A DNA stretch of 64,000 bases, taken from the NCBI GenBank assembly GCA_000004985.1, contig GG738849.1; one strand, 5' to 3'. The position numbers and the translations under genes are program-made. This DNA comes from Naegleria gruberi (Eukaryota). Every line of letters begins with the position of its first letter. Position 1 is the stretch's first letter. The notes beneath the pieces were generated by a model. It did no database searches. It was given only the letters and a program-made list of their open reading frames with translations, and was not told the origin of the DNA. Positions 23,453 through 46,500 of the stretch are shown piece after piece.

Positions 23453-26400
23453 ATGGAAGGTGTGAGAGAGATTGAAGATGATATTTCATCATCATCGTCA
23501 TCTGTTGCAGAATTAGTTACGGATTTTCAATCAATTGGTAAAAATTTAATTCAAGATCATCAACAGTATGATGGGACATCAGATAATTTTCTGATGAGTT
23601 ATTCACTCTCATTTAGGAATGACAACACAACACAGGATTTGGAGGCTAATCTAAATCCGAAACGAGATGAAAATGAAAATAATAATAACACAAAGTGGAC
23701 ACCAACGGATAGGCCAATAGGAGCACAAATAGGATATAATCTTGAAGATGATGAATATTTATTGGTTGATGTTGGAGATAAAGGTGATTTATATACGAGT
23801 CAAACATTTATCAACTCTTCAGTAGTGACAACACCTAGACATGTGGCTTATCCATCCGTAATTCCAGAAAGTTCTGAAGTATTTTTTGATATTCCACATT
23901 ACAGTACGGATACAGTCAAGTTGGATCTCGATATTTTGGGAAGTGGCTCGGATATTCAAATAAGCTCTGTAATTGATAATTCAAAGGAGTATAAAAGTAT
24001 TGGAAGTTATTTGTATCCTACCAATAGTACTACCCCAACAGTAGATTTAGTTCCCCTTCTTCAGTCTCAAATAGGATTGGGATATGTAAATAATTTATTA
24101 CTGACAGAAGCTGATGTGTTGGATTATTTGGGGAAGCATACCTTTAGTATGGATCATGAATTTTACATAATGTGCTATGAATATTATCAATCCTTTTCAG
24201 AGTTGACCAGACTGAGATCTGAAATGGACCACCTACTCACTGAACAAGAAAATATCGAAAGAAATTTATTTATTTTAAATGAACAACAGATAAAATCTCC
24301 CATGTGTGATTGTGGGGATGGATACCAAGTACATGGTTATGTAAAGGCACTCACTGCCACTTTGGATCACAAGCAAAAGAGTAACCTGATCAAAAATCAA
24401 GAAAATCTGAGGAATCTCTATCACGACAAGATTGTAGAGGTAAACATGTTGAACAGATATTTCCATCTTAAAGTTTCCCGATATATTGGAGATATTATTC
24501 AAAACGAACCTCTATTTAACAATTATCTGAGGTACGAGCTTTACACCTTGTCGGTAGAAGATATGATGCACAAGCAGAATTTAAGAGTAGAACAAGACAT
24601 TGCTGCGGTTGATAGACTTAAAGTTGTCATTCAAATACTACTCTATTTCGAGCAAGTATCATGTGAAATTACAACTCTTCATGTTCCTAAAGGATTCTCT
24701 CCTGTTTCTGTAACCATCAGTGGGGAAAATATAGAAAATTTTAGGAAGGAAATTAGGGATTGGGCTTATCTATCAATTGCCTCGCTATTGAGGGTCTCAA
24801 CAGTGGAAGATAATAGGTTTTTAATCTTTGAAATTCTTAAATGCAAACATATTGGAAGTTGGGGGCAAACTTTCCTTCAATTTCCAGGAGTAGATTCTGA
24901 TCAAGCAATTGATACATTTTTGGCATTCCTTTCCCTCTTCTTAACACCAACATTTATAACTGAGAATGAACTAGTTTTGTCAGAAGAAGATTACTTGTCA
25001 TTGTGGACACAAGTTCCTCTTTTTGAAAGTATGGAATACATACTTTCCAAGTGTACTGAGCAATTTGGACTCAACCAAAGCAACTCTACCTTCTCCTCAT
25101 TTTCACAAGCCTTCTCCTTAATTGATACAGTGTTGTACATTTTCTATCAGGCTTTGAGCAATTTCAACAAATCTTCTAATCACAAATCATTTACTAGAAT
25201 GCTCTCTCAGAATATGGCAAGGCTCGTTCAAATGGCTTCCAACTCGCTTGCACAAATAGAAGGGACAAGTCAAGAAGATGTTGAATATCTGTTCAATTCC
25301 TTCTATGTAAAGTGTTTCAAAGGTTTACTTTCATCCTCATCGAGCTTGTGGTCCTTCCTTTCTGAGCTACCATATGAAATTATTTCAGAGCCTTGTGCAT
25401 GCTCGATATTTTGGATTATGTTTCGTGATGAACCTGTGATTGATCTCAAAATAACTTATGATATTTTGAGAGATTTTGATTCATGGCTCAAATTGGTCAC
25501 TGAAGATAAGAGTTTGAGAAATAATTTTATCACACTCTTCCAAAAACCAGAGTGTAGTTATTTATTTCCTGTAATGTCAAGATTGGGCTGTTCTCATTCA
25601 TACGGTCTCGCTGCCATTATAGTTCACGAGCTATTCTTGATTGGTTTCATTAATGAAACTTCTAGAGATACCTATTTTAGAGATGCTACAAAGAATATTG
25701 TTTCAATATGTGAGATACATCCCCGATTGATATCATTACTGCTTGCACTTGTTGTTAAATACTTAAAGTTTGTAGGAAGGTATTCCCTTACCATGTTTAA
25801 ACAACTTGATTTAAAGACGTGGAAATTATCCAAAACAAAAGACTTACCGCTATTGGAAGAGTTAATTCTCAAACCACTCAACTCTACGGAACATGAGCTT
25901 GCCAGATTCATCATAGATCATTTGGCTTGGAATGATTCTACAAAAAACAAGAACTTGACATTGGATGTGCAGAAGGATATACTTTTATTGATGGCAAGAA
26001 CAGTCTCAACACACAAGAAGGATTCACAATATTCCTTCGTTAAAAAGGATCCATGGATTGGTCTCGAGGAATGGTGTTGGTCTGTTGCTCAGAGGGTTAA
26101 AATCTATGACTCTGTCCAAACACCACTCATTCCTATTGAGTCGATTGAACATCCCTCTCTCAATGGACTTTTACATACGATTGAACTATCTGTGAAAAGT
26201 GGCTCAATAGATGGAGTTAGTATATATGCTGTTTTGGCCTTGAGTGATGTAGGCAACAATTTGGAAAAGTATAATGAATATTCATCTGGTTGGTTTGAAG
26301 CTATTGTTAACAACAAGACACAAGAAAGAGCAATCAGACTAATGTATGAAATCAGCATGAGGTTTTGTGAACAAGTCAAGTCTCAAAGCTCAGGAGTTCG

Positions 26401-29400
26401 TACGCCAACAAACCTCACATTCTATCCTCACATGGATAGTATTTTGTATTTGGATACCAAATCTTCATTCATTTCTAGATTGGTCAGCTCGAACAGATAT
26501 ATTGGTGATAATACTCAAAGTCTTTCTACATGCATTTGCAAAGGTATTCAGAGTTTACATGCCTCTGAGAAATTGAACAAGTTGAGAAGTTTTACTCTAT
26601 TTTGGGTAAATGAAATTACGAAAATTTCTAATTGGACCAATAATCCATGCTGCCTCTTCCTTATGAATCAAATTTCCAAAGTAATAATCCACTTGAATAT
26701 GATTAATGTTACAGGTATTTCAAATATCATTTCAACTCTACCTGAAATGGATATGTTTGCTCTCCAATCTTCTGGAATATTTACCTCTTCATCCACTGTA
26801 ATTACCACTTCTGCATTCAATAAGGACATTAATCCTCAGATTCAATATCCATATTTTTCTTTTATTTATTTGATTGGATTGTCGTTATCAGAGTTTCACA
26901 AACGTCAACAAGTTGCCAATTCTCTTTTCGAAATGAGAAATACTTTCCCAACTGCTGTAAAATCCTTTGAGGCAGTTAAATTCTGTATTTATAGAGTATT
27001 GGCATATTGTGTCAAGTTGACAGAGCAGCTATTGGATACCAGTCAATCACCAACAGATGTCACTAATATTCATTCCATTCTTCCAATGTACTGGCAATTA
27101 TTTTTCCACTTGTACTTTGAAAAGCAATTCACTCCAATGAATACTGTAAGATTTTTCGGCTATCAATTTCTTGAAATACCAACAAAGGAAAAGATTTTCA
27201 CATCAGTTCTCGACAGGTTAGAATCTCTAAAGAAATTCTACACAGAGACACAAAACACTAGTTTTACAACACGAGGAGAGTTGATTGACTTGTACTATGC
27301 AATGATATTATGGCTTAAAGGCACCAAAGATAACTTTTTATACTTTATTGATCAAATATCATCAATTAGCAAGTTTCATCAACCTGCCAGAATTGTTAGT
27401 TCAATTAATGATGACATTGCAAGAGATACTACCAAGTTATGGCATGATTTGATTGATAATATTAACATACAGGAACTTATTAGTAGTGAAGAAAAGAATT
27501 ATATTTCCTCTATTTATCCAACTTTTACTAGCCAATCAAGCACTCTGTCAATCAAAAGCCGATCTTTAGTATTTAATAACCAAAAGATTGATATAATCTT
27601 TTTAAAGCAGAAGGAAAAGGAAATAATGAAGTATTTACCATCTGTTACCATAACTCAGGAACCATTCCCACGAGGATTTATTCTCAATTTGAGTGATTTG
27701 AATGCTATGAAAATTACACAATCCATTGATATTTACCTCAAAGAAAAAGAAATGCAAAGAAGAGCAGACGAGGAATATATTTCCCTCATACCTTATCTCT
27801 ATTTTGAGGTAAAGAAGCAAGCCTCTCTTTCAGTTCCATGCTATAAGGAATTTTTCTGTAAAAGACCAGCCAATATTTACTTCTCCTATTCAGAATCAGT
27901 TAAAAATAATAATAATGAAACTAGAATGAAGGAAAATAGATCATTGGTTATGCGAATTATGGATTCTAAATATGTTGATCATTCACTTTGCAATTTATTG
28001 TATGAATTGGATGTAACTCTAAGAAATGTCAACTCTCAAGGGTTGGGTAGCAAACTTTTCTATGGTCTTTTGCAAATTCACTTTGTTATGTGTGATAGGT
28101 TTGTTCCTTTCAGAAAGATTATGAATCACATCGTATCACAATTTGCTTCCACATTTATAATGAATCAACCAACTGAGATGGAGAGTCTATTGATGAGTAT
28201 GGTTCAAAGTAATGCCTTGATATCTTTACTTTCTCCATTTTTTAATCCTTTACTTTGTCCAGAGTCTTGGGAACGATTCCTTGAAATCATTTTGAACAAG
28301 AAGAAGGAAAACCCTTCAAGTATGTCCCTTCAGATTTACAAAAACTTTGACATCCAAAAGTGGTTGGCATCGTTTTATAATATTGAAAATATTAAATCAC
28401 TGATGGCTCACTCAGTGAGAAATCTCAGAAATTGCAAGATGAATGAGGTAATTGCATTCTATCTTACACTTATACCTGCTTGCATCAATAGTTACCCTTC
28501 TAACTTGTTGGCATTTACATTCTCTCACATGTATTCGTGCATGTTAGAGCTTCCATACCAATTATTAGAATCCTGCAATGACACTATGAGTTTTGAGAAT
28601 TTTGATGATTCATTACTCTGTGATTTTATAGAAATTACCAGAGAATTCTTATGGAACGTCAGAAAAAAGCACAACAACACTCTTTACAATGCTTTGCCAA
28701 AGGAATATTTGAAGGAGATTGTAAGGTTGTTGGAGAAATTTGTTTGTTTTTCTCATCTCAGCAATAGTTTCCTCCAAGAAGGCCAAGTTTTTGAAAAAGT
28801 TTGCAGAGGATATGAAGCATTCATATTGCCAGTTCCAGCCAAAACTAATCTCTCAACATCTGGAGATGTGACAATTCTTCCCTTCCTTGATAATCAAGCT
28901 TCTATGGCATCTTCAGTTCTGGCAAGTTTCGTCAGATGCAATAAGCGTCTCTTGGAATCTAACAAGGGTATTCTCAATCAAGTTTGGAACATTTATTCAC
29001 AACTTATTTTCAATAACATTCTTGATCCAGACTGTCTAAACATGTATCATCAGGAATTGATGTATCTGGATTGGTCAAATTGGACAACAATTAATTTTGA
29101 ACAAATTTCACAAATGTGTGCCATTTTAGAAGTCTCTCCACAGAGAACAACCAAGACAATTTTGTCTGGTCACAGAATATTCGTCAAGAATATTATCAAG
29201 GTCATGTCTTGGAAGATTATTACAGATAATATCGTATTGTGTCATTTGAGTAGTGAAGATATTAGTAAGGTCTATTCGGATATTATTTCCTTGATGGTCT
29301 CCTCTATTCTCAAGTCTACAACACCACAAGTGGATGAAAGTTTGGCTGAATGTGTTGAAAAACTTTTCAATTTTAATATTGAATGGAATAGAATTACTGT

Positions 29401-30820
29401 GGAACATTTTTCAAATATTTTGAAACTCTATAGCAAGCTTTTTATTGAGGTTAAGAACTTTTCATACAATATTCCAAAAAGAAACCTCGATCTCTGCTTT
29501 TCAATTCTTCAAAATGTTTGTCAACCAAGAGAGTCAACAGCCAGCAATAGCTACCCTTCAGCTAACCAATACGATGATTATCCAAATGTAAATCCAAACT
29601 ATCAATCCAATAAGCCACTCACTCTCTACTATATTGATTTTATTATTAGTACTCTGGTTTATAGTTTTTCCTCCAAGCAAACTAGTCCTTCAGTAGTGGA
29701 TAATTATCTAGCAGAGCAAATTACACAACCTTTCGATTGGATTATTGATACAATGGCTCATTATTATGATTACAACTCGTGCACAGAACATTTTGTTCAA
29801 TTGCTAACTTTTACAGATCGTAACTATGCAGAATTTGATACTATTTTCCAATTTATTATTGAAAAGGCATTCCAACACCCAAGCAAATTGTCTATTTGTT
29901 TGTTCTCAGCTGCTCAATCGGTTAAAAATTATTTGAAATCTACGATATTAATGGAATTTGCTCTTAGATCTCATATTAGTCAACCTAATGTTTCTTTCAA
30001 TTATTTAACATCTATTCTATGGTTGCCACCACATGAAGCTCAAAGAAGACAGTTTGCATCTGCATGTATTGAGAAAGGTTGCTCATTGTTGTACTTTGTT
30101 CAAACTCTCAAAAGAATACAAGAAGAGCATGACACTCCACTGGTAATATTTGAAAAGATAATTGAGGAATTTATATTTAATTCCAATGTATTCTGTCCAG
30201 ATCAAGTGAATATTGTCTCACAAATCAAATCCTCCAACATGCTTCGACCAGAGCAATATCTCATTCCAATATGGTCACTCTATGTGAATGTTTTAATAGA
30301 AACGAGACCTGCATCATTCTCCAGTGTCATACCAATAACACAGGGCTATTATTTGAATTTATTACTAGATAAGAACCATAACAAGCTCCCTCCTCAACAG
30401 TACTATCCTGGAGTGGATGGAATATTGTCCCTCTCTAATCTCTTACTCACCATCAGTGAGGACAGAACAGTGGAGAGTACATTCGGCAAGTTAGTTTCCT
30501 TTTTCTCTAAAAAGAGTGACTTTGAGGTTTATAGAAATGATTTCAAATTCTTTTCCAGAGTTTTGGGAGTGTACTTGTTGAAATTCACTGCTAAATATCA
30601 TGTGAACGATCAAAAAGCCATTCAGGAATATCAAAAGTTGAAATCTACACTTGACAAGTACTTTACCAAAACTAGTGACACAAAGGAAAGAAATGCATTG
30701 GAAGTTTTGAACAATTACCTTAATTTATATGGAGAAACCAATTACTTGTTCGGATTTGTTTCCTTGATGGTTGAGCTGATAGGTATTCTTTTTGAATCTT
30801 CTACCTTTCCTAAGTTTTAA
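23453..30820 (+). CDS. Giant 2455-aa single-exon protein of unknown function, predicted alpha-helical repeat scaffold.
   Basis: An uninterrupted 7.4-kb ORF with coding-like composition throughout. I recognise no catalytic motifs, P-loop or TM segments. Confidence 0.6.
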   Translation: MEGVREIEDDISSSSSSVAELVTDFQSIGKNLIQDHQQYDGTSDNFLMSYSLSFRNDNTTQDLEANLNPKRDENENNNNTKWTPTDRPIGAQIGYNLEDDEYLLVDVGDKGDLYTSQTFINSSVVTTPRHVAYPSVIPESSEVFFDIPHYSTDTVKLDLDILGSGSDIQISSVIDNSKEYKSIGSYLYPTNSTTPTVDLVPLLQSQIGLGYVNNLLLTEADVLDYLGKHTFSMDHEFYIMCYEYYQSFSELTRLRSEMDHLLTEQENIERNLFILNEQQIKSPMCDCGDGYQVHGYVKALTATLDHKQKSNLIKNQENLRNLYHDKIVEVNMLNRYFHLKVSRYIGDIIQNEPLFNNYLRYELYTLSVEDMMHKQNLRVEQDIAAVDRLKVVIQILLYFEQVSCEITTLHVPKGFSPVSVTISGENIENFRKEIRDWAYLSIASLLRVSTVEDNRFLIFEILKCKHIGSWGQTFLQFPGVDSDQAIDTFLAFLSLFLTPTFITENELVLSEEDYLSLWTQVPLFESMEYILSKCTEQFGLNQSNSTFSSFSQAFSLIDTVLYIFYQALSNFNKSSNHKSFTRMLSQNMARLVQMASNSLAQIEGTSQEDVEYLFNSFYVKCFKGLLSSSSSLWSFLSELPYEIISEPCACSIFWIMFRDEPVIDLKITYDILRDFDSWLKLVTEDKSLRNNFITLFQKPECSYLFPVMSRLGCSHSYGLAAIIVHELFLIGFINETSRDTYFRDATKNIVSICEIHPRLISLLLALVVKYLKFVGRYSLTMFKQLDLKTWKLSKTKDLPLLEELILKPLNSTEHELARFIIDHLAWNDSTKNKNLTLDVQKDILLLMARTVSTHKKDSQYSFVKKDPWIGLEEWCWSVAQRVKIYDSVQTPLIPIESIEHPSLNGLLHTIELSVKSGSIDGVSIYAVLALSDVGNNLEKYNEYSSGWFEAIVNNKTQERAIRLMYEISMRFCEQVKSQSSGVRTPTNLTFYPHMDSILYLDTKSSFISRLVSSNRYIGDNTQSLSTCICKGIQSLHASEKLNKLRSFTLFWVNEITKISNWTNNPCCLFLMNQISKVIIHLNMINVTGISNIISTLPEMDMFALQSSGIFTSSSTVITTSAFNKDINPQIQYPYFSFIYLIGLSLSEFHKRQQVANSLFEMRNTFPTAVKSFEAVKFCIYRVLAYCVKLTEQLLDTSQSPTDVTNIHSILPMYWQLFFHLYFEKQFTPMNTVRFFGYQFLEIPTKEKIFTSVLDRLESLKKFYTETQNTSFTTRGELIDLYYAMILWLKGTKDNFLYFIDQISSISKFHQPARIVSSINDDIARDTTKLWHDLIDNINIQELISSEEKNYISSIYPTFTSQSSTLSIKSRSLVFNNQKIDIIFLKQKEKEIMKYLPSVTITQEPFPRGFILNLSDLNAMKITQSIDIYLKEKEMQRRADEEYISLIPYLYFEVKKQASLSVPCYKEFFCKRPANIYFSYSESVKNNNNETRMKENRSLVMRIMDSKYVDHSLCNLLYELDVTLRNVNSQGLGSKLFYGLLQIHFVMCDRFVPFRKIMNHIVSQFASTFIMNQPTEMESLLMSMVQSNALISLLSPFFNPLLCPESWERFLEIILNKKKENPSSMSLQIYKNFDIQKWLASFYNIENIKSLMAHSVRNLRNCKMNEVIAFYLTLIPACINSYPSNLLAFTFSHMYSCMLELPYQLLESCNDTMSFENFDDSLLCDFIEITREFLWNVRKKHNNTLYNALPKEYLKEIVRLLEKFVCFSHLSNSFLQEGQVFEKVCRGYEAFILPVPAKTNLSTSGDVTILPFLDNQASMASSVLASFVRCNKRLLESNKGILNQVWNIYSQLIFNNILDPDCLNMYHQELMYLDWSNWTTINFEQISQMCAILEVSPQRTTKTILSGHRIFVKNIIKVMSWKIITDNIVLCHLSSEDISKVYSDIISLMVSSILKSTTPQVDESLAECVEKLFNFNIEWNRITVEHFSNILKLYSKLFIEVKNFSYNIPKRNLDLCFSILQNVCQPRESTASNSYPSANQYDDYPNVNPNYQSNKPLTLYYIDFIISTLVYSFSSKQTSPSVVDNYLAEQITQPFDWIIDTMAHYYDYNSCTEHFVQLLTFTDRNYAEFDTIFQFIIEKAFQHPSKLSICLFSAAQSVKNYLKSTILMEFALRSHISQPNVSFNYLTSILWLPPHEAQRRQFASACIEKGCSLLYFVQTLKRIQEEHDTPLVIFEKIIEEFIFNSNVFCPDQVNIVSQIKSSNMLRPEQYLIPIWSLYVNVLIETRPASFSSVIPITQGYYLNLLLDKNHNKLPPQQYYPGVDGILSLSNLLLTISEDRTVESTFGKLVSFFSKKSDFEVYRNDFKFFSRVLGVYLLKFTAKYHVNDQKAIQEYQKLKSTLDKYFTKTSDTKERNALEVLNNYLNLYGETNYLFGFVSLMVELIGILFESSTFPKF

Positions 30821-30853: not shown

Positions 30854-33800
30854 TTACAGAGCCAAATGAATAGTTTGAATAATGCCAGAGTTGATATCTG
30901 AGGTTACTTTTCTTGAGGCCATTTGCAAAATGTGAGCATTACCTGTACTTGTTAGGTTGTTTCTTTCAAGAGTAATAAAGTGAATAGCATCATAGTTTTC
31001 TGTTGAAATACCTTCTCCCAAGTATTCTGCTCCTTTATCAGTAATCATATTAGATTCCAAATCAATAAATCCCAATACTGCATTATCTTTCATCTTTTTC
31101 ATATACTCTGACAAAAATAATACACCAGCATCTGTAATGTCATTATTTCTAATGGAGAGTGAAGTCAGAGTATGGTTATTCTCATAGAGTGAATCTACTA
31201 CTTCCTTCAAACCTAAATCACCCACCTTGTTATAATTCAAAACTAGGCATGTAATGGATGTATTATACTCTAATAATTTGCGTAAATAAACACCAGATCT
31301 TGGAGTAAAGTGATTTCCTGATAAGTTCAAATGATAAATATTCGAAGGTTTTCTATTTCCTATCTTGTCCAATAGAATTGAATTGTCACTGAATAATAAT
31401 GATAAATCATCATCACCCAATGAACAATTTCTCAAATCTACACAAATTAAACTCTGTAATAAATTTTCAAACACACAATTCAATGAAACTAGGGAAGTGT
31501 TGGCATTGAATAAGTTAGAATGTGGATAAAAAGTGGAAATAACGCTTCTCATCTCTTCACAGTAATCAAAATCTCCAAGAACATTACCGCTAATAAGGAA
31601 ATGCGATATTGGTTTCTTTGTGAACTTTTCAAATGTCTCCATTGCCTTATCTTTCAATGAGCAATCACTAATTTCAAGCCACCACGATCCACAATTTAAA
31701 TCTTGATATTCACTTGTGTCTCTTGCATACAACTTAGTTGTCAAATCAACAATTGAATCGGAGAGCATATCAGGATTATTGCTCATATTCAATCTGGATA
31801 AGCTTGTATTTCTCTCAATGGATTTCATCAAGTGGCGAGCACTGAGATAGGTTATTCTATTGTTTGTCAAGTCCAAATTTATGAGAGTGTCATTGAATTC
31901 ACCAACATTTCTTTCCAATGTTGGTTCATTAGTATTCTTAAATATTTGATCAGTTGGTGAGAAGGCGTTTGCAAATGCCAAAGCTCCCAAATCACCAATG
32001 TAATTTGACTTTAAATTAAGATAGGTCAAGGTTTGATTAGTTCTCAATGCCTCAGCAAGAGAAAAGCCTCCCAACTCTCCAACCTTGTTCTTTTGCAAGT
32101 CCAAATAAGTTAGTGTTTGATTCTTCTTTAGAACTTGTGCCAGACAGATGGCTCCTTTCTCAGTAATTAAATTTCTACCAATTGTAAGAATGAGAATAGA
32201 GCTTGAATTCATTAAACCTCTAGACAAGTATTCTACACCCAAATCTCCTAAATTATTATAGTCGAGAGCTAGTTTGGTAATTTCAAAAGGTCTGTTCTTG
32301 ATTGGTATCTCTGAGACTTGATATAAAAAGTTAGACAAGTGAATGGTACCTTCAGGGTACATTTCTACACTGCTCAAATCAAGAGAAAACGGAACAGGAA
32401 ACTCTGCTCTTTTAGCATTTTGAACACTCTCTATCATGTCACTAAAAACAAATCCTAAATCATCGGATTTTGAGGTCTGTCTACAATCAATACTGAATCC
32501 ATATCTTTCACCTGCTGAGCATTCAAGAGATTTTCTTATAACATAATTTGCGCCCACACTTTGGATAGGATTCAAACGGAAGGAGATTGAAGTCAAGGAC
32601 TTGTTATGTTCCAAAGTGTCAATAATGATTTTGGCACCTTTAGCACCAATAGAATTCCAACGTAAATCCAAAGTTTGGAGAATGCACTTTTCACTCAGCA
32701 AATACTTGGCAATGGCTGGAGCAGATTTATCAGTCAGGAAACAAGCCCCAACGTCAATCAGAGTCAAGTTAGAACATGACTCCAATATTTGGAACAATTC
32801 TATGGCTCCCTTATCTTCAATTCTACAACCTCTGATATCAATTTCTTGCAAGTATGTAATATTTACATGAGGAAGGGCTAAACTCTTTACAATTCCTTCC
32901 CAACCCTGATATGAGAATCTTCTTCCCTTGATTCTAATATTTTCCAAATAGACTTGTCTATCTTTAACATTTGAATAGTAATCATAAATGTAATCTCCCA
33001 TGATTTTTTCGTGAATTTCTCTACCAAAAACAACACCAGTGGTTGATGAGTAGACTCTAATCTTTTCCTCCTCACTCACAATTGAATCGCTCAATTGTTG
33101 AATATCTATATTGTTCAACCTTTGTTTATAATCTACTGTTCTCGGTTCAATGGATTTTGTCAATTCGTCAAAATTCAATTGTTCAAACTTGGTAAGGGTT
33201 GGTTTGGCAAGATCAGTCAGCCTATTCCACTGTTCTGATGGTGTGAATAAATAATTATCAAGTGTGTACATGAGAGATTCTTGAGAAGTTACCAAATGTG
33301 AAGCTCTTCCACGAGTGATTAAACTTTTTTGAATGTGTCTCAAACCGTCATCTTTGGAAACAATGAAAATCCTAGTGTGTAAATCTGTGATACGATGTAA
33401 TGCACCAGCAATGGCTCCTAGTAAATAATCAGCAGCATCCTTGAACTTTTTAAAGTATCCCTTATCATAAAAATCAAATAAATACTTTTCAAATGAATTC
33501 ATTCCACTCAAATTCTGTTCCGACAATCTGATCTTTACAAAGTGTAGACTGGAACCACGTTCACGAAGTACCTCCTCACTCACCTTGATAGAAGTTGAAT
33601 ATTTTGGACCTGCTACACCTATTAAAAGACAATCCTTTCCATAATCAAAGTTCCTCTCCTTGAGTAAAAAGATTGACTGGCCCACATTATCCAAATCAAG
33701 AAGAATAATATTCTTAAATCTTCCATATGGATTTTCATGTTTCTTCTCATTGAAATGCAAGTCCAGAATGTCCTTTGTGTACCAATTTGGTTCAAATGCA

Positions 33801-34801
33801 TTATAGTAACCCCAGACAAAGTATCTCACATTGTCAAGACATGCCTTGTTCATGAAAAATCCACCCCTCTTTACAAAAACCTCCTCAGATATTGTGGAAA
33901 GTGCTGAATCATCAGTTGGAGGTTTCTTTTGTTTCTTTGCTTCTTTCAATAGTTTGTTTCTGATTCGTTTCAATTCCTTCTTGCTCTTCTTTTCTCCCAC
34001 TGTCGAATCCGTTGTTGATGAAGAATCAATAGAAATGTTATCCGATTCTAAAGGTTGTTGTTGTTGATCAGTTGAATTCAATCCCTCTTCTTGTTGAACA
34101 AGATTCAATGGAACAGGTTGAGGATTTTCCTGTTGTTGATTTTGTTGTTGTTGATTTTCTAAGTCCTGTTGTAATAATTGTTGTGTAGCAAGTTTTTGTT
34201 TGACATACTTTTCAACTCCTGGAAATTCCTTCTTCTTTGTTGGAATTGAACTAAATGTTTCAAAATCAACAAATTCATACAATCTCCACCATAATTCCTC
34301 ACAATATAATTTCCACAAACAATCAATATTGGAAACTTTACAAATTTCAAATAATTTATCCATTCTATCACCATCATTTAATATTTCTAAAATTCTTGTT
34401 CGGAAATCAGAGTTATCATCACACTGATCAATTTGACAATAATCAGTGAATAATTTCCTTGCTTCTATCCAAATGGTAGGAATATCCTTTTTGTGAAAAC
34501 ATTTCTTTTCCTTGAAAACTCTAGTGATTGTATAGGTCAAAATTTGTCCAATCTTTTTAATGTATTCTTCATCGAGAATTATTTCTTGATCATCATCGGA
34601 TATGAATTGTGAAAGTAAAAAGGCTTGATTTAATTCCTGTCTTGCAAGGTACATTGACGGAAATCTGCAACATGTTAAATTTAATAACTCAACTAGCAGT
34701 TTTATTCCATTTGATGATGTGTCTTCATCTTGACTGTTCAGAGTTGTAGTAGTAGATAAATTACCACTATATTGATCACCTTGTTGAGAGAGTTCTGACA
34801 T
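30854..34801 (-). CDS. 1315-aa protein with a central NYN/PIN-like nuclease-like region and extensive C-terminal ribonuclease-inhibitor-type LRRs.
   Basis: About 20 RNI-like LRRs (L..L.L..N.IGD.G...LA.AL). In the central region, IILLDLDNVGQS, AADYLLGAIAG and IFIVSKDDGLRH resemble the acidic-residue pattern of the NYN/PIN-like fold (WD.EN .. D..L .. S.D). No P-loop or NACHT found. The N-terminus has a Q-rich low-complexity stretch. Confidence 0.5.
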   Translation of the reverse strand: MSELSQQGDQYSGNLSTTTTLNSQDEDTSSNGIKLLVELLNLTCCRFPSMYLARQELNQAFLLSQFISDDDQEIILDEEYIKKIGQILTYTITRVFKEKKCFHKKDIPTIWIEARKLFTDYCQIDQCDDNSDFRTRILEILNDGDRMDKLFEICKVSNIDCLWKLYCEELWWRLYEFVDFETFSSIPTKKKEFPGVEKYVKQKLATQQLLQQDLENQQQQNQQQENPQPVPLNLVQQEEGLNSTDQQQQPLESDNISIDSSSTTDSTVGEKKSKKELKRIRNKLLKEAKKQKKPPTDDSALSTISEEVFVKRGGFFMNKACLDNVRYFVWGYYNAFEPNWYTKDILDLHFNEKKHENPYGRFKNIILLDLDNVGQSIFLLKERNFDYGKDCLLIGVAGPKYSTSIKVSEEVLRERGSSLHFVKIRLSEQNLSGMNSFEKYLFDFYDKGYFKKFKDAADYLLGAIAGALHRITDLHTRIFIVSKDDGLRHIQKSLITRGRASHLVTSQESLMYTLDNYLFTPSEQWNRLTDLAKPTLTKFEQLNFDELTKSIEPRTVDYKQRLNNIDIQQLSDSIVSEEEKIRVYSSTTGVVFGREIHEKIMGDYIYDYYSNVKDRQVYLENIRIKGRRFSYQGWEGIVKSLALPHVNITYLQEIDIRGCRIEDKGAIELFQILESCSNLTLIDVGACFLTDKSAPAIAKYLLSEKCILQTLDLRWNSIGAKGAKIIIDTLEHNKSLTSISFRLNPIQSVGANYVIRKSLECSAGERYGFSIDCRQTSKSDDLGFVFSDMIESVQNAKRAEFPVPFSLDLSSVEMYPEGTIHLSNFLYQVSEIPIKNRPFEITKLALDYNNLGDLGVEYLSRGLMNSSSILILTIGRNLITEKGAICLAQVLKKNQTLTYLDLQKNKVGELGGFSLAEALRTNQTLTYLNLKSNYIGDLGALAFANAFSPTDQIFKNTNEPTLERNVGEFNDTLINLDLTNNRITYLSARHLMKSIERNTSLSRLNMSNNPDMLSDSIVDLTTKLYARDTSEYQDLNCGSWWLEISDCSLKDKAMETFEKFTKKPISHFLISGNVLGDFDYCEEMRSVISTFYPHSNLFNANTSLVSLNCVFENLLQSLICVDLRNCSLGDDDLSLLFSDNSILLDKIGNRKPSNIYHLNLSGNHFTPRSGVYLRKLLEYNTSITCLVLNYNKVGDLGLKEVVDSLYENNHTLTSLSIRNNDITDAGVLFLSEYMKKMKDNAVLGFIDLESNMITDKGAEYLGEGISTENYDAIHFITLERNNLTSTGNAHILQMASRKVTSDINSGIIQTIHLAL

Positions 34802-34866: not shown

Positions 34867-36435
34867 CTATTTCAAAATACAAGGGCACAATCTTCTTGTT
34901 AATGCATGTGAATTGTGGCAATTAAAATCACTTGCTCTGAATCCCAAATAGCAATTTCCATGTTTCATGGCTGGTAGACTGCTTGAAGAAGATCCTTTCT
35001 CATAGGAGCATTTGCAATTCTTTGTGAACTTATCAAATTCATCGCATCTGTTAATGTATTCGAAAAAGCTCACATCACACTTTGCTCCTAATTTACTACA
35101 ACACTGATTACAGTTCTCCCCACTATCACAAAATACGCTCTCCACGTTTTTCAAATCTGAAAGTGAAAACCTATGAGTTGGAGCAAAGGAAGGAAGCATG
35201 GCAGTATTGTGAACGAATTCCGCGTTTGCATTACCAACCTCAGTATCTATTTTCTTTTTTATCAATTCTTGGCAAGGTGAGAAAAGAGAATGAGAACAGC
35301 TTTCCAAATCAAAATCAGATTGAGTTTCATAGCATTGAGATTTTTGGCTCTTTCCCAATGAGAGAAGTTGAAATCTGAATCGGAATGAAATTCTATCCTT
35401 AAAATCAGGGTTATCCAAAAAGAAATTGTCCAATAAATATTTGAGAGAATGTCTTGAATCTTTTTTCTTTTCAAAATAATCAATTGTTGTGGTGATATCC
35501 TTTCTGTTAATAATAGTTCCACTCATTCCATGAGAGAGACGATAACTAGACCAATCCTTTCCCTTCTCACCTAAGTGTTGCATATGCTCAAACACCAGAG
35601 AAAGATGAGAGATTGCCCGAGAGCAGATAATAGCACTCTCATCCATGAACAGTAATGGAGCATCGGAAGAACCTATCACTCTTGTAACAGACTCCTCTAC
35701 CGAATTAAAATCATCAAGTATGTATGTTTTCTTAAATAATCTCACCATTTCATAGAATATCTTTGCCCTGGAAGTAGAATCTTGCCCCACCTTACCAGGA
35801 TAATTAATTACATCCACAACAGCTTCGTGTTTCTTCGAGAAATCATCAACAACTTTTTTCAATCTGTCCTTATAATCAATATCTTGATTAAAGAGGACAA
35901 TACATGGATGGAACAATCTTTGCTTGAACCTTGATAAATTATCCAAGTTTCTCTCAATGTGGTCGTATTCGTGTCCAATATGATTAACCTTAGGATTGCA
36001 AGCAATTAGTACAGTCAAATGACATCTTTCCACAGGTAAACTGTACCACTGAGATTCACCATCAATCGGAATGTAGGGTTGATATTTGTATTGTGTCTTG
36101 GGTTGCTCCACAAAGAAAACCATACTAATATGACATAAAGATATAATAAATAATATTTGGAATGTTGTGAATAGGAACCAACTACTAGCAAAAATTGAAT
36201 AAATAAACCTAACAAAACCAAATATTAATCTAAATATCATTATCGGCACTGAAATTATTAAGAAGAATAAATTTAAAATGAAATTCATAAGTCCCTGTCC
36301 TTTTGTAGAGCACAATGTTCTCAGCTTGAAGTTTAAATTCGCCCAGAACTCCCTCCAAAATATCTTTGCAGAGGAGGATGGAAATCTTGTCGAGGAAGTG
36401 ATTACACCACCAGTATTAAAACTCGTTCGAATCAT
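34867..36435 (-). CDS. Type II membrane glycosyltransferase, MGAT4 (GT54, GlcNAc-transferase IV)-like.
   Basis: N-terminal hydrophobic anchor(s). LTVLIACNPK .. HPCIVLFNQDIDYK .. AVVDVINYP parallels the MGAT4 pattern LTIGIPTVKR .. DCVIVVFIGETDIDYV .. GLVEVISPP. The start could be 36435 or the internal ATG at 36288. Confidence 0.55.
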   Translation of the reverse strand: MIRTSFNTGGVITSSTRFPSSSAKIFWREFWANLNFKLRTLCSTKGQGLMNFILNLFFLIISVPIMIFRLIFGFVRFIYSIFASSWFLFTTFQILFIISLCHISMVFFVEQPKTQYKYQPYIPIDGESQWYSLPVERCHLTVLIACNPKVNHIGHEYDHIERNLDNLSRFKQRLFHPCIVLFNQDIDYKDRLKKVVDDFSKKHEAVVDVINYPGKVGQDSTSRAKIFYEMVRLFKKTYILDDFNSVEESVTRVIGSSDAPLLFMDESAIICSRAISHLSLVFEHMQHLGEKGKDWSSYRLSHGMSGTIINRKDITTTIDYFEKKKDSRHSLKYLLDNFFLDNPDFKDRISFRFRFQLLSLGKSQKSQCYETQSDFDLESCSHSLFSPCQELIKKKIDTEVGNANAEFVHNTAMLPSFAPTHRFSLSDLKNVESVFCDSGENCNQCCSKLGAKCDVSFFEYINRCDEFDKFTKNCKCSYEKGSSSSSLPAMKHGNCYLGFRASDFNCHNSHALTRRLCPCILK

Positions 36436-37237: not shown

Positions 37238-39246
37238 ATGATGAGAAATTGTAAAAATTGGTTTCATGTTGTTAACAAGACGAGAAATGGTCTTGCATCA
37301 ATGAATAAGAAGAATACATTAACATCTTCCGCACTTGTTAACAGCAGTAATATGCTAATGAATAGAAGTTTTCAAAAGTCAATCATCTCATCATCATTTA
37401 ACAAACAACAATATTCAATGGAAGATTACTTTCATTTGGGACATATTCTTTGTGATCAACATGTTAAAAAGGATGAAAAATCAATTGCGTTGAACTATTT
37501 GACAAGTGATGGAAAATTTCAATATACTTTTAAACAATTGAGTGATTATAGTGAACAGTTTGGTCAATTTTTGAAAAGTCTTGGTTTGAAACGTCAAGAT
37601 AGAGTTTCAATCCTATTACCAAAGTGTCCAGAATTAATGATAAGTGGTCTAAGTATTTGGAGAAATGCAATGACCTATGTTCCTCTATTTACTGCCTTTG
37701 GACCAGATGCTATTGCACATAGAGTTTTTGACTCTGAATCCAAGGTTATCATTACTGATGAGGCTAATCGCCCAAAATTAGATCCCATTCTCAGTCAATT
37801 AGAAGAGAGAGGTGTTAAAATTGTCATTGTTGAGAAGAGTATTGCAGAGAGTATGGCCTATAGAGTAGTGGATGGAAATGCACCACTATTAACCTCATTT
37901 AGCTCTTTCAAACCAAATGAATACAGATTTTGGAATAGTTCAATTTTATCTAGTCAACAAAGACCAATCATTAGAGATTCTACTGGAATGGATAAGAATG
38001 ATATCATGATTCTCTTGTACACTAGTGGTACTACTGGTAAGAGCAAGGTTAGTATTTCTTCTTGTCAATACACTTATTTTTCTAACAATTATTATCAATT
38101 AACATCCATATTAATTATTATTTTGAATTATTTTGCTTGAATATCCAATTTTTAATCTTTATTTAATAATAGGGTGTACCAGTTTCAGTAAAAGCTTTGG
38201 GATCATTTGAAGTGTATATGAAATATGGACTCCATGTTGAACATGATGATGTATTTTTAAATATTGCAGACCCTGGTTGGGCCTATGGCTTGTATTATAA
38301 TGTTTTAGGAACTCTTCTATTGGGAATTCCAACTTATTTTGTCAATAGATCATTCAATCCTCAAGTAATTTATGAAATATTACAAAATGAACGTGTGACT
38401 AACTTTGCTGCAGCTCCAACAGCATATCGAGCAATGAAAGCACAAGGTCCAGAACTAGCTCAACAATACAAGTTTTATCTCAAAAAGGCCAGCTCAGCAG
38501 GAGAAGCATTAAATAACGAGGTAGTTACCTTCTTTGAGAATATTTGGGGTACAAGAATTAAGAGTCACTATGGTCAAACTGAACATGGTATGCTTATTAA
38601 TTATCATCACCATCCAGAATTAGCTCTTTCATCTGTATCGGAGGTAACAACTATTGGACAACCAATTCAAGGATTTACAGTCACTCTGTTGGATGACGAC
38701 TTTAGAGAAATTTCAGAACCCTATGTGAAAGGTCATTTGGTTATTGATATTGCTAACTCACCTGCTAGGTTCTTTACTGGATACTGGAATCAACCTGAAA
38801 AAACTGAGGAAAAAATGGTTCAATCCCCTTCTTATACAGATGGTCGTTTATTTGAATTGACCGGTGATAGTGCCTATAGAGACGAAAATGGCCTTTATTT
38901 CTTTAGTGGAAGAAGTGACGATATTATCACATCTTGTGGTTATCGTATCTCACCAAAAGAAGTTGAAGATTGTCTGATAGAACATGAAGCTGTTTTTGAG
39001 TCTGGAGTTGTAGGTCAAAAGGACGAGTTGAGAACTGAAATGGTTGTTGCATTTGTTGTGCTCAGATCAGGTTATCAGCCAAGCAAACAACTTGAGCAAG
39101 AGTTGTGTGAACATGTCAAGAAAAAACTCTCAGCTCACCAATATCCAAAGAGAATTTTCTTTGAGGACAAGCTTCCATGCACCGAAGCTGGAAAAGTTAA
39201 GAGAAATATTTTAAGGGATAAGGCAAATGCAATGCTATCTCAATAA
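37238..39246 (+). CDS. AMP-dependent synthetase/ligase (medium-chain acyl-CoA synthetase-like). Two exons: 37238..38047 and 38173..39246.
   Basis: The AMP-binding motif YTSGTTGKSKG is split by the intron 38048..38172 (GTTAGT..ATAG, 125 nt) and rejoined in frame as TSGTTGKSK-GVPVS. Downstream are YGQTE, GD and the C-terminal lysine region. The N-terminus looks like a possible mitochondrial presequence. Confidence 0.8.
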
Positions 39247-43532: not shown

Positions 43533-46500
43533 TTAAAAATTATCAGTGACACCCAACTTTTCCTTCCAATCAAATCCAAGACATACACTCAAATTCCTTA
43601 TCTCATCCTTTTCTTCATTGGTGAGTGGTATTGAGCTGGGGTAATCTTTCAAAGTACCCCATGAATCTCCAATTTGAACCTTTACAGGCAGTGGTACTAG
43701 AAGTTTCTTATCTGTATTCTGCATAATATTTTTTGTACAATAGATAAATGTACTGAGAGAGTCTTCTCTCACTTCAAAGAGTAGCTCATCATGAATTTGT
43801 AGTAACATGTATGCTCTTTCTTCTTTCTTATTAAAATGTCTCATAAATGAATAAATACCTAACATGACTATTTTCATAATATCAGAGGCAGAGCCTTGAG
43901 AAACAGTATTGAGAGCAGCTCTTCTAGCTGCAGCTCTCTTTGATGAATCATCAGAACAAATATCATGGATAAATCTCTTTCTTGAATATGAGGTTTCAAC
44001 ATAGTGCTTTTCCACAAGGTGATTCTCTACAAAGTCCTTATATTGCTTCAATCCTTGATATTTTTCAAAAAAATTTTGCTTGTATCTTTCAGCAGCTTCA
44101 ATTCTATCCTCACCAGGCCTCAACATAAAATCCTCATTCTCACTATTGAACATTTTACCAGAGAGAGTTTCTGAGCCCATACAATAGGAAATTCCATAAA
44201 TGATCTGCTTGACCAGACTTCTATGAGATAATGGAACTGGTTCTTCAGGTCTAAAATTCCAAAAGTTTCTAGCAATTTCCTCAAAAATATCTCTTTCTGT
44301 ATTACTGAGAATGTCTGAAAGGGTTCTATCTTGTGAGAGGTGGGCTAAAATTCTCAATTCAATATTCTTATAATCAATTGAAACCATTACATAACCATTT
44401 CTTGGGATGAAGGCGCTTCTAATACTCAGTGTGATTATGGATTTCTGAGAGAAAGGGTCCTTAATGTCGATATCATTTGGAATATTTTGAAGGTTTGGAT
44501 TCTTGACACTTAAGCGTCCAGTTGCTGAAGTGGTTTGCATTTGAGAGGCAAATATTCTATATTCTTGAGTGTCTGGGCAGTATTTGATATCATTGGGCAT
44601 GTTTTGAATGTGATGAGTCTTAATATTCAGCAAGTATCTGTATTCACTGATTTGCTTCATAATATAAGACTTATCGGGGTAGAGTTTTTTCAACTTTTCC
44701 AATATTTCCTTGTTTGTTTTCCTCTCTGTACCCTTAAGTTTTAATTTATCAAAGAGGAGTAATGCAACATGGTCATTATTGGACACATCAATCTTTTTAC
44801 CATCCAAAATTTGTAAACTGTTCAAATCTCTTGTAATTTCATCGAGTTTAGCATCTATGAGTTTCGTATTATGTTTGATCCAATGATAATTGAAACGTAT
44901 TCCATTATGTTCCATTGTGCTTAAAACTTTGGAGAAGCTCATTTCAAATTCAAACATTTGTCTCAATTCCAAATTAATAATGGATACCATAACAGCAGTC
45001 ATTATTGGCCAACATTGGCTAGCTGTCTTTACAATGACAAACTTGTCATTCTTGGGAGTAAATAGAAATGAATCAGATGGGAAATATTTCAAGTATATTT
45101 CCTCAAGAGTTTTCTCATTATCCGAATCATCTGGATGTTGTACCCAGTCTCCAATCATTGGATCAAGTACGGGATCTTTAACAATTAAGTCCCAAGCCTG
45201 TAAGAGTCTTGTTTGTTGTTTTTTAAATCCGAATGTAAGTTTGGGTTTTCTCTTGTCTTGCAGCATTCGTTTTACTATCTTGGATCTATAATCATCTAGA
45301 TGGATAAAATAGCATTTGCAAGGAATATTTGGATCGATTTTGGTTTCACATCTCTTCTCAAAAGTTAAATAATCCTCAAATACTTCATTAAAACAAATTG
45401 AGAGTCCCTTCACCGTATAAACATCCCTATTCTTAATAAAGGTGGTTGGATTGTCTTGCTTTTTCTTAATTCCAAATTCGAAACAGAATGAAAATACTTT
45501 TGAATTATTCCAACGCTCCAAAAACTCATCAAATAATTGATTATCACCAAGTTTTAGTTCTATCACAGAATCTTCCTTTTTCTTTTTGTGCTCTGCCTGA
45601 TTATCATCAAAGGCGTTACATCTCTTTTTTCCTCTCTTTTTTGGAGAGCTATTTTGGAATAGGAATGTATCTTCGTCTTGTGGCCCAAATATCCACTCTA
45701 AAGGAAGTAATTTCTCCTCTACAATTGCCTTTGCTCCTTCTACAATCAAATTAGCTTTAGTTCTACTTTCTGTTGTGTTTTGAGAGCCTTTAACAAGTAT
45801 ATTTTCGATACTTTCTGGTGTTTCATCAGCAACCTGTGCAATTGTTCTGAGACCAGCACTGAATAACAATCTTGCTCTTGATGAACCAACAAATGGAATT
45901 TGAACAAGAGGTACAAGTTCCTGTCTCACTCCAGAAACAAGTCGTTCTTTGATTTCTTTGAATGCTTCCGAGAAAAAGCTTGGTAAGGCAGCATATTTAC
46001 AAAAACTTGAGAGTACAGATGCTTTTGAGGCAGCATCTTTTTGAACATTTTGTACAGATCCTCTTGCATCTGAGTCTCCAAAATATGTCTCTGCAATATT
46101 TTTGATTGGATATTCCAGTATAATGTCATAGAGTATAAATGTTTTTCTCAATGTGTAGATAGTTTCGCTCAATTCTCGTTGATGACTACTTCTATTTCCC
46201 ACCGACAAGATGTAACCTCTCAATTCATTAATGTCTCTAATCTTGTTATTTACAAATTCTGAAAACTCTCTTCTCTTGATGGCAATATTTACAATTTTTT
46301 CAGCAACTTTTGAGAATGTATCGTTATAATCAGTATGAAATAGACTATTTTCAGAGAAGGAGGCAAGAATGTAAATCATTCCTAGATCATCTTCCAAGTA
46401 GAAATTTTTCAATTCATTCTTAATGGTTTGGTAAAACTTGAGAGAAAGATAGGGACAAATATTGGCGATTTGTGTTGCAAATCCCAATGGTTTACAATCG

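What the first reader, a model, noticed from the sequence alone, without database searches (positions are those of the whole stretch)
30854..34801. NYN/PIN-like nuclease-like region coupled to about 20 ribonuclease-inhibitor-type LRRs in one 1315-aa protein
The C-terminal two thirds are unmistakable RNI-like LRRs (L.L..N.IGD.GA..LA.AL). Upstream, a roughly 180-aa block (IILLDLDNVGQS .. AADYLLGAIAG .. IFIVSKDDGLRH) matches the acidic-residue spacing of the NYN/PIN-like RNase fold. There is no NACHT or P-loop. An effector-like nuclease domain joined directly to a ligand-sensing LRR array is reminiscent of innate-immune or surveillance architectures. I do not recognise this particular pairing. 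The nuclease assignment is an inference from a few motifs.
Basis: partly seen in the sequence, partly recalled or inferred. Interest (0 to 1): 0.7.

Follow-up and report, generated by a model that had tools for sequence, protein, structure and literature searches.

The report
Amoebal NYN-like nuclease domain fused to LRRs
A single-copy Naegleria gruberi gene encodes a 1315-residue protein that joins a predicted NYN/PIN-type nuclease domain to about 20 ribonuclease-inhibitor-type leucine-rich repeats, an undescribed pairing whose conservation fits a fixed binding partner better than a diversifying immune sensor.

Summary
Window 30854-34801 (-) is one uninterrupted 1315-aa ORF, identical to Naegleria gruberi XP_002681867.1, annotated "predicted protein".

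- **LRRs:** residues 617-1300 form about 20 RNI-type repeats (LRR_6, E 3e-34). This is the C-terminal half, not two thirds.
- **No NTPase:** there is no NACHT and no Walker A motif.
- **NYN-like domain:** residues ~356-520 belong to the NYN group of PIN-like domains.
  - Six of seven family members hit Pfam PIN_11 and PIN7. The Balamuthia member exceeds the PIN_11 cut-off.
  - D369, D371, N372, D458, S482 and D484 are invariant and sit at the canonical active-site positions.
- **Weak points:** the window protein itself is below the Pfam cut-off, Foldseek against PDB found nothing, and no PIN_11 or PIN7 member has shown nuclease activity.
- **Family size:** only six clusters among 1.84 billion representatives, all with the same three-part architecture.
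- **Immune-sensor reading:** not favoured. The gene is single-copy, and the LRR concave face is better conserved than the rest of each repeat.

Best reading: a metal-dependent nucleic-acid endonuclease directed or regulated by a conserved LRR-bound partner. This is a new architectural variant of known domain kinds.

The parts
30854..34801 (-). Complete single-exon CDS, 1315 codons plus the stop at 30854-30856. It is N. gruberi XP_002681867.1 (NAEGRDRAFT_46256).
34232..34714 (-). N-terminal family-specific domain, residues 30-190, presumably helical (not modelled). Conserved motifs are LxLTxxRFP, W111xEAR and WKLxxEExWWRL. It has no known relatives.
   Evidence: alignments; no Pfam or PDB match
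33884..34231 (-). Low-complexity Q/K/E-rich linker, residues 191-306. It contains a basic cluster, KKSKKELKRIRNKLLKEAKKQKK, at residues 271-293 (nt 33923-33991). This may be a nuclear localisation signal, which is inference only. The linker is conserved only within the Naegleria clade.
   Evidence: 36% identity to N. fowleri
33737..33883 (-). Two conserved helices that precede the NYN-like core, residues 307-355, with the motif FFxxKxxLDxxRYFVWGYHxAF.
   Evidence: AF2 model helices 13-30 and 35-44, pLDDT about 80-87; alignment
33242..33736 (-). NYN-group PIN-like domain core, residues 356-520. Secondary structure runs b1-a-b2-b3-a-a-b4-a-b5-a.
33686..33697 (-). Codons for D369-L-D371-N372 at the C-terminal end of strand b1. 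D369, D371 and N372 are invariant. This matches the NYN 'DxxN' motif.
   Evidence: compare 2qip 'VDVQN'
33428..33430 (-). Codon for the invariant D458, in the first turn of the helix before b4 (KxKxAAD motif; K452 and K454 are also invariant).
33347..33358 (-). Codons for S482-K-D484-D485 directly after strand b4. S482 and D484 are invariant, and position 485 is D or E. This corresponds to the NYN 'SxDxD' motif, with the last Asp shifted.
32954..33241 (-). Linker between the NYN-like domain and the LRRs, residues 521-616. It is moderately conserved (SEEEKxRVY, GDYIxEYY).
30857..32953 (-). RNI-type LRR solenoid, residues 617-1315. About 20 repeats lie in three blocks (617-770, 805-1064, 1065-1300), followed by a conserved C-terminal tail, GIIQTIHLAL.

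Best explanation
The gene encodes a conserved, single-copy amoebal protein with three modules. The first is an N-terminal domain of unknown type. The second is a minimal NYN-type PIN-like domain, closest to the ZNF451 C-terminal PIN_11 family and the bacterial PIN_7 family. The third is a horseshoe of about 20 RNI-type LRRs.

The most likely mechanism has two parts.
- The LRR concave face binds a conserved partner, either a protein or a nucleic acid. That partner recruits or gates the nuclease.

Shown here: the ORF, the LRRs, the absence of an NTPase, homology to PIN_11/PIN7, the NYN-like fold of the model, and the conservation pattern.

Inferred: catalytic activity, the substrate, and the role of the LRRs.
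For: - Pfam: PIN_11 and PIN7 are hit by 6 of 7 family members, best E 2.4e-10 and 1.3e-8. NYN is hit by one member at 0.049.
- The Balamuthia homologue scores 34.1 bits against PIN_11, above the 26.6-bit cut-off, in its full-length context.
- PIN_11 and PIN_7 are classified as minimised NYN variants of the PIN-like fold (PMC5499597).
- The AF2 model built on the 7-sequence alignment has pLDDT 73 and pTM 0.78. The active-site elements have pLDDT 77-90.
- BFVD Foldseek gives four giant-virus proteins at probability 1.00, plus several entries named NYN.
- The invariant D369, D371, N372, D458, S482 and D484 persist across 27% identity.
- They lie at the C-terminal ends of b1 and b4 and at a helix N-terminus, which is the Rossmannoid switch point.
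- The NYN-like core is the best conserved part of the protein, 83.5% between N. gruberi and N. fowleri.
- LRR concave positions are 74% conserved against 56% for the rest of each repeat.
- All full-length homologues keep the same three-module order.
Against: - The window protein itself scores only 12.6 bits full-length, or 18-20.5 bits as an isolated domain, against PIN_11. The cut-off is 26.6 bits.
- hhalign against the 2qip NYN clade is weak, E 0.055-0.079, and covers only the b4 region.
- Foldseek against PDB gave no significant hit.
- The last Asp of the canonical SxDxD motif is Gly486.
- No member of PIN_11 or PIN_7 has demonstrated nuclease activity. The ZNF451 PIN-like domain contributes only modestly in the one functional study found.
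Confidence: 0.55

Rival explanations
1. It is an NTPase-less innate-immune or surveillance sensor-effector. The LRR horseshoe recognises a non-self ligand, such as a product of a giant virus or an intracellular bacterium. Binding then releases or activates the NYN nuclease, in the way RNase L couples a repeat sensor to an RNase.
For: - The architecture is a repeat array plus a putative nuclease with no other catalytic module.
- The LRR type is the same as in NLRs.
- All identified hosts are free-living amoebae: Naegleria and Balamuthia.
- The structural neighbours in BFVD are giant-virus proteins.
Against: - The gene is single-copy, with no lineage-specific expansion.
- The orthologues are collinear, with LRR blocks 59-72% identical.
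- The concave ligand-facing positions are more conserved than the rest of each repeat, the opposite of diversifying selection.
- There is no switch or oligomerisation module, neither NACHT nor NB-ARC.
- There is no PADLOC match.
- A receptor for an invariant ligand would pass all of these tests, so this reading is weakened but not excluded.
Confidence: 0.15
2. The NYN-like domain is a non-catalytic interaction module and the protein is an LRR scaffold or adaptor. The ZNF451 PIN-like domain is reported to bind p300, and many RNI-type LRR proteins are structural subunits of large complexes.
For: - PIN_11 and PIN_7 are listed with variable active-site retention, '3-4 (+/-)', and with unknown function.
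- The fourth canonical NYN Asp is replaced by Gly486.
- The best LRR matches in PDB include subunits of large complexes such as LRRC34, DRC5 and RSP15.
Against: - Four Asp residues, plus Asn, Ser and a D/E position, are strictly conserved at the catalytic positions from Naegleria to Balamuthia. The rest of the domain has diverged to about 30% identity.
- The NYN-like core is the slowest-evolving part of the protein.
- Balamuthia is not known to form flagella (background knowledge), so an axonemal role is unlikely.
Confidence: 0.22
3. The central domain is not PIN-like. It is a HAD-type phosphatase or phosphotransferase Rossmannoid. LDLDN would be motif I (DxDx[TV]), K452/K454 would be motif III, and SKDD would be motif IV.
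For: - The sequence pattern DxD ... K ... DD sits at the ends of b1 and b4.
Against: - No HAD-family Pfam hit at E up to 10 for any of the 7 members, while PIN_11 and PIN7 hit six of them.
- The T/V of motif I is an invariant Asn.
- No conserved Ser or Thr ends b2. That position is the invariant G398.
- In the model, b1 leads straight into a helix, with no squiggle or flap hairpin.
Confidence: 0.05

Closest known systems
PIN_11 (Pfam PF18479), the C-terminal PIN-like domain of metazoan ZNF451/ZATT
   Same: It is the best-scoring Pfam family for this protein family: 6 of 7 members hit it, best E 2.4e-10, and the Balamuthia member is above the cut-off. It is classified as a minimised NYN variant with 3-4 conserved Asp.
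   Different: - PIN_11 was described as restricted to Eumetazoa and fused to C2H2 zinc fingers, SIMs and a UIM. Here the hosts are amoebae and the partners are LRRs plus an unknown N-terminal domain.
- The window protein is below the Pfam cut-off.
- The conserved Cys/His set noted for PIN_11 is not seen. Only H469 is invariant.
- The biochemical function of PIN_11 is unknown.
PIN_7 / PIN7 (Pfam PF18475), a bacterial family of unknown function
   Same: It is the second-best Pfam family: 6 of 7 members hit it, best E 1.3e-8. It belongs to the same NYN group.
   Different: - It is almost exclusively bacterial.
- No prokaryotic relative of this family was detectable by pattern scan plus tblastn.
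- No member reaches the 34-bit cut-off in its full-length context.
NYN domains with solved structures: MARF1 (5yaa/6fdl), LabA-like VPA0982 (2qip) and Rae1/YacP (5mq8)
   Same: - The order of secondary-structure elements is the same.
- The DxxN motif after b1 and the SxD motif after b4 align with 2qip.
   Different: - Sequence similarity to PF01936 is marginal: one member at E 0.049, and hhalign E 0.055.
- The last Asp of SxDxD is Gly.
- There is an extra invariant Asp, D371.
- Two extra N-terminal helices are present, along with a long disordered b2-b3 loop.
NLR / STAND innate immune receptors (NACHT-LRR, such as NOD2 and NLRP3)
   Same: The LRRs are of the same RNI-like type: PDB hits to NOD2 at 5e-20 and NLRP3 at about 3e-7. 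The C-terminal placement of the LRR array is also shared.
   Different: - There is no NACHT or NB-ARC domain and no Walker A motif.
- There is no death-fold or TIR effector.
- The gene is single-copy and its LRR face is conserved.
RNase L (ankyrin repeats + pseudokinase + KEN RNase), a functional analogy drawn from general knowledge
   Same: It is a repeat-type ligand-binding module fused in one chain to an endoribonuclease effector. It is the closest precedent for the 'works like a sensor-nuclease' reading.
   Different: The repeats and the nuclease have unrelated folds. Dimerisation of RNase L depends on 2-5A and a pseudokinase domain, neither of which is present here. No homology was tested or is claimed.
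LRR-only RNI-like proteins (ribonuclease inhibitor, LRRC34, LRRC74A, RanGAP)
   Same: The repeat type and length are the same, 28-29 residues. Public annotators named homologues 'LRRC74A' (Balamuthia) and 'RanGAP' (JGI).
   Different: Those names reflect only the LRRs. This family also carries the NYN-like domain and the N-terminal domain.

Membership tests
PIN_11 (PF18479) | HMM score at or above the Pfam gathering cut-off of 26.6 bits | tested here: not met
   The window protein scores 12.6 bits full-length, 18.0 bits for residues 300-640 and 20.5 bits for residues 307-526. Its Balamuthia homologue P0007 scores 34.1 bits. Homology is therefore supported at family level, but the window protein would not be annotated automatically.
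PIN_11 (PF18479) | ZNF451-type context (C2H2 zinc fingers, eumetazoan) and conserved Cys/His within the domain | tested here: not met
   There is no zinc-finger Pfam hit. The hosts are Naegleria and Balamuthia. H469 is the only invariant Cys or His. The description of PIN_11 comes from PMC5499597.
NYN group of the PIN-like superfamily | Three-layer alpha/beta/alpha PIN-like fold of the NYN type, without the helical insert after strand 2 | tested here: met
   [not shown]
NYN group of the PIN-like superfamily | Four conserved acidic residues at the b1 end, the helix N-terminus and after b4 (DxxN ... D ... SxDxD) | tested here: inconclusive
   D369/N372, D458 and S482/D484 are present and invariant. 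The last Asp position is G486, with D/E485 adjacent and an extra invariant D371. Spatial clustering was not measurable.
NYN (PF01936, LabA-like) | Significant sequence or profile match to PF01936 or its members | tested here: not met
   Only 1 of 7 members hits it, at E 0.049. hhalign against 2qip gives E 0.079, and against a 13-sequence Vibrio NYN alignment E 0.055. As a control, that same Vibrio profile also fails to find MARF1 NYN in PDB, so this test is insensitive.
NYN group of the PIN-like superfamily | Metal-dependent endonuclease activity | not testable with these tools
   This needs biochemistry.
RNI-like LRR (LRR_6, PF13516) | Tandem 28-29-residue LxxLxLxxNxL(x)2G repeats above the Pfam cut-off | tested here: met
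   LRR_6 scores 114.7 bits against a 23.4-bit cut-off. There are 16 strict and 4 degenerate repeats.
NLR / STAND receptors | Central NACHT or NB-ARC P-loop NTPase | tested here: not met
   There is no such Pfam hit and no Walker A motif. No homologue has one either.
HAD superfamily | Motifs I-IV (DxDx[TV]; S/T after S2; K; DD) plus squiggle and flap after S1 | tested here: not met
   Motif I has an invariant Asn in place of T/V. G398 ends b2. The model has no flap. There is no HAD Pfam hit.
   There are no paralogues. Concave positions are 74% identical against 56% for the rest of each repeat.

The most novel reading that the evidence does not exclude
Free-living amoebae carry a minimal, NTPase-less pattern-recognition nuclease. 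An RNI-type LRR horseshoe would sense an invariant non-self or damage ligand, for example from giant viruses or intracellular bacteria. It would directly unleash a fused NYN-type RNase. This would be an independent, simpler solution to the sensor-effector problem that NLRs and RNase L solve, and the first assigned activity for the PIN_11/PIN_7 clade, which includes human ZNF451/ZATT.
Probability: 0.12. Interest if true: 0.8.

Novelty: new variant of a known kind. Interest (0 to 1): 0.45.

Why it matters
- **Range of the clade.** The PIN_11/PIN_7 'minimal NYN' clade was described as eumetazoan plus bacterial (PMC5499597). This finding extends it to Heterolobosea and Amoebozoa.
- **New architecture.** NYN-like plus RNI-type LRR is not mentioned in the main text of that classification, nor in any paper found here.
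- **A route to function.** The amoebal family keeps the acidic positions invariant, so it is a tractable place to test whether this clade has nuclease activity. The clade includes the poorly understood C-terminal domain of human ZNF451/ZATT.
- **If the LRRs gate the nuclease.** It would be a very simple one-chain recognition-cleavage device.
- **If not.** It is a rare, lineage-restricted RNA- or DNA-processing factor of modest general interest.

Tried and rejected
- **Word-index homology search.** It timed out three times. When run with the family alignment it returned only the fragment P0006.
- **Single-sequence AF2 of residues 300-640.** It was useless, with pLDDT 32.
- **Family profile against PDB sequences.** Nothing significant.
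- **Foldseek against PDB.** No hit at E <= 1e-3, only generic Rossmann folds.
- **The afdb50 library.** It was not available.
- **hhalign against 2qip and against a shallow Vibrio NYN alignment.** E 0.055-0.079, with only the b4 region aligned. The last homology search returned only Vibrio sequences at 70% identity or more, so the NYN profile was too shallow. It does not even find MARF1.
- **Pattern scans of IMG/VR, GTDB genomes and JGI metagenomes.** No relatives.
- **PADLOC, NCBIfam and PHROGs.** No match to the domain.
- **N-terminal domain.** No Pfam or PDB relative.
- **Literature.** No mention of the locus or of the metagenome or SRA sources.
- **Rejected readings.**
  - NLR-like STAND protein: there is no NTPase.
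  - HAD phosphatase: the motifs and profile hits fail.
  - Axonemal LRR scaffold: Balamuthia has a homologue.
  - Bacterial or viral origin of the window: it is the N. gruberi nuclear genome, and its neighbours are ordinary eukaryotic genes.
Full report
**1. The observation**

The window is nuclear DNA of the amoeboflagellate Naegleria gruberi. ORF 30854..34801 on the minus strand is uninterrupted and encodes 1315 aa. It is identical to XP_002681867.1 / EFC49123.1 / UniProt D2V2V0, "predicted protein", on an 850-kb contig.

The flanking ORFs are ordinary eukaryotic genes: a DHX8-like helicase, a kinase, an acyl-CoA synthetase, glutamate dehydrogenase, an ankyrin protein and a PolQ-like gene. 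Some are split by short introns. Gene neighbourhood is therefore not expected to inform function.

Pfam LRR_6 matches at E 3.1e-34. PDB sequence hits to ribonuclease inhibitor, NOD2, NLRP3 and LRRC34 cover residues 638-1268. A strict LxxLxLxxNxL regex finds 16 repeats, and four degenerate ones complete a series of 20 between residues 617 and 1300, in three blocks. The LRRs therefore occupy about half of the protein rather than two thirds.

There is no NACHT or NB-ARC hit and no Walker A motif.

**2. The family**

An exhaustive phmmer search used residues 300-640 against 1.84 billion representative proteins. It found only six real relatives:
- N. fowleri XP_044559927.1, 1415 aa.
- Three proteins from uncultured eukaryotic contigs (ENA, Logan and JGI).
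- One 354-aa fragment.
- Balamuthia mandrillaris KAL6073093.1, 1469 aa, annotated "LRRC74A".

Every full-length member has the same order of modules: N-terminal domain, central domain, RNI-type LRRs. There is no paralogue in the window, and no second N. gruberi relative appeared. Pattern scans of IMG/VR, one genome per prokaryotic species, and JGI metagenomes found nothing more. The family is rare, single-copy and, as far as it can be identified, confined to free-living amoebae of two distant supergroups.

**3. The central domain**

*Profile evidence.*
- The window protein scores below threshold against Pfam PIN_11: 12.6 bits full-length, 18.0 bits for residues 300-640 and 20.5 bits for residues 307-526, against a 26.6-bit cut-off. 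It also scores below threshold against PIN7.
- Scanned member by member, six of seven hit both PIN_11 (best E 2.4e-10) and PIN7 (best E 1.3e-8). One hits NYN at E 0.049.
- The Balamuthia protein exceeds the PIN_11 cut-off in its full-length context, at 34.1 bits.
- Matelska et al. 2017 (PMC5499597) define PIN_11 as the C-terminal domain of eumetazoan ZNF451, and PIN_7 as a bacterial family. Both are "minimized NYN variants" of the PIN-like fold with unknown function.

*Structural evidence.*
- An AF2 model of residues 307-526 was built on the 7-sequence alignment. It reaches pLDDT 73 and pTM 0.78.
- Its topology is two helices, then b1-a-b2-b3-a-a-b4-a-b5-a.
- Foldseek against BFVD gives four giant-virus proteins at probability 1.00, and several entries named NYN or LabA-like.

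*Caveats.*
- Foldseek against PDB found nothing significant.
- hhalign against 2qip, or against a shallow Vibrio NYN alignment, gives only E 0.055-0.079 over the b4 region. As a control, that Vibrio profile also fails to detect MARF1 NYN, so this last test is insensitive.

**4. The active site**

The invariant columns across the family are L367, D369, D371, N372, G398, F444, Y445, K452, K454, A457, D458, L461, G466, H469, R470, S482, D484 and R497-G-R499. The family reaches down to 27% identity.

In the model:
- D369 ends b1, followed by D371 and N372.
- D458 is in the first turn of the helix before b4.
- S482, D484 and D/E485 follow b4 directly.

These positions correspond to VDVQN, GDWDV and SGDGDF of 2qip. 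Three of the four canonical NYN acidic positions are kept. The fourth is G486, with D/E485 next to it, and there is an extra invariant D371.

The NYN-like core is the slowest-evolving segment: 83.5% identity between N. gruberi and N. fowleri, against 49% for the N-terminal domain and 36% for the linker. This argues for a functional pocket. However, I could not access the model coordinates, so the spatial clustering of the Asp residues is inferred from topology and was not measured.

A HAD-type reading (DxD ... K ... DD) was considered and rejected:
- No HAD profile hit appeared.
- An invariant Asn replaces the T/V of motif I.
- No Ser or Thr follows b2.
- The model has no flap.

**5. The LRRs and the immune hypothesis**

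The LRR blocks of N. gruberi and N. fowleri align essentially without gaps at 59-72% identity.

Positions 2, 3, 5, 7 and 8 of each LxxLxLxxN strand form the concave ligand-binding face. In the Naegleria clade they are 74% identical. The L/N scaffold positions are 76.5% identical, and the rest of each repeat is 56% identical. Among the distant members the concave positions are 33% identical against 24% for the rest.

This is the opposite of the hypervariable concave face seen in diversifying immune LRRs. It indicates a conserved partner. A receptor for an invariant ligand would show the same pattern, so the sensor reading is weakened but not excluded. No PADLOC, NCBIfam or PHROG model matches the domain.

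**6. Other parts**

The N-terminal domain, residues 30-190, is conserved across the family but has no Pfam or PDB relative. The Q/K-rich linker carries a basic cluster at residues 271-293. This may be a nuclear localisation signal, but that is inference only, and the cluster is conserved only within Naegleria.

**7. Mechanism**

Most likely (confidence about 0.55), this is a metal-dependent endonuclease of the NYN type whose recruitment or activity depends on a conserved partner bound to the LRR concave face.

RNA is the favoured substrate, by precedent of the characterised NYN-type nucleases MARF1 and Rae1/YacP (background knowledge). DNA is not excluded, because ZNF451 acts in TOP2-DNA crosslink repair. 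In that system its PIN-like domain contributes only modestly and no nuclease activity has been shown.

Rival readings:
- A non-catalytic scaffold (0.22).
- A sensor-nuclease of the innate-immune type (0.15).
- A HAD-like enzyme (0.05).

**8. Comparison and novelty**

The domain kinds are known, and the protein is already in public databases without annotation. What is new:
- The assignment of its central domain to the PIN_11/PIN_7 NYN clade.
- The extension of that clade beyond Eumetazoa and Bacteria.
- The NYN-LRR architecture, which the main text of the PIN-like classification does not mention and which no paper found here describes.

I rate it a new variant of a known kind, with interest 0.45. 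It is a clean, testable architecture and a possible handle on the unknown function of the ZNF451-type PIN-like domain, but there is no evidence yet of an unusual mechanism.

Noticed in passing
window 23453-30820 (+): A 2455-aa ORF converges on the target gene with only a 33-nt gap. It has no Pfam family and no PDB sequence match. The exact ORF is not in the protein collection, so the public gene model probably differs. It is a very large protein of unknown function.
   Followed up: partly
window 34867-36435 (-): A 522-aa ORF lies 65 nt upstream on the same strand. Its last ~90 residues match the C-terminus of glycosyltransferase family 18 (GnT-V, E 3.8e-8), and it has an N-terminal hydrophobic segment. 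A GnT-V-like enzyme in a heterolobosean is slightly unusual.
   Followed up: no
window 37238-39246 (+) and 43533-48554 (-): Pairs of adjacent ORFs carry consecutive parts of one protein. One pair holds the two halves of an AMP-binding enzyme. The other holds a PolQ-like helicase next to a family-A polymerase. The genes are therefore split by short introns of about 55-65 nt, so ORF lists in this window underestimate gene lengths.
   Followed up: partly
model of window residues 307-526 against BFVD: The best viral structural neighbours, at probability 1.00, are uncharacterised or dsRBM-containing proteins of Pithovirus, Marseillevirus and Orpheovirus, all amoeba-infecting giant viruses. No sequence relative was found in IMG/VR. 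This may be a shared NYN-like fold between amoebae and their viruses. The direction of any relationship is unknown.
   Followed up: partly
L001 4792-7896 and L002 2919-5984: Two ~1020-1034-aa homologues with the same architecture come from unidentified eukaryotic contigs: Logan SRR22387979 (29% GC over L001) and JGI 3300056809. They lack the Q/K-rich linker. The source organisms could not be identified.
   Followed up: partly
Balamuthia homologue P0007 (KAL6073093.1); JGI homologue P0005: The public names, 'Leucine-rich repeat-containing protein 74A' and 'RanGAP', reflect only the LRR region. They miss the PIN_11-type domain, which in P0007 passes the Pfam cut-off.
   Followed up: yes
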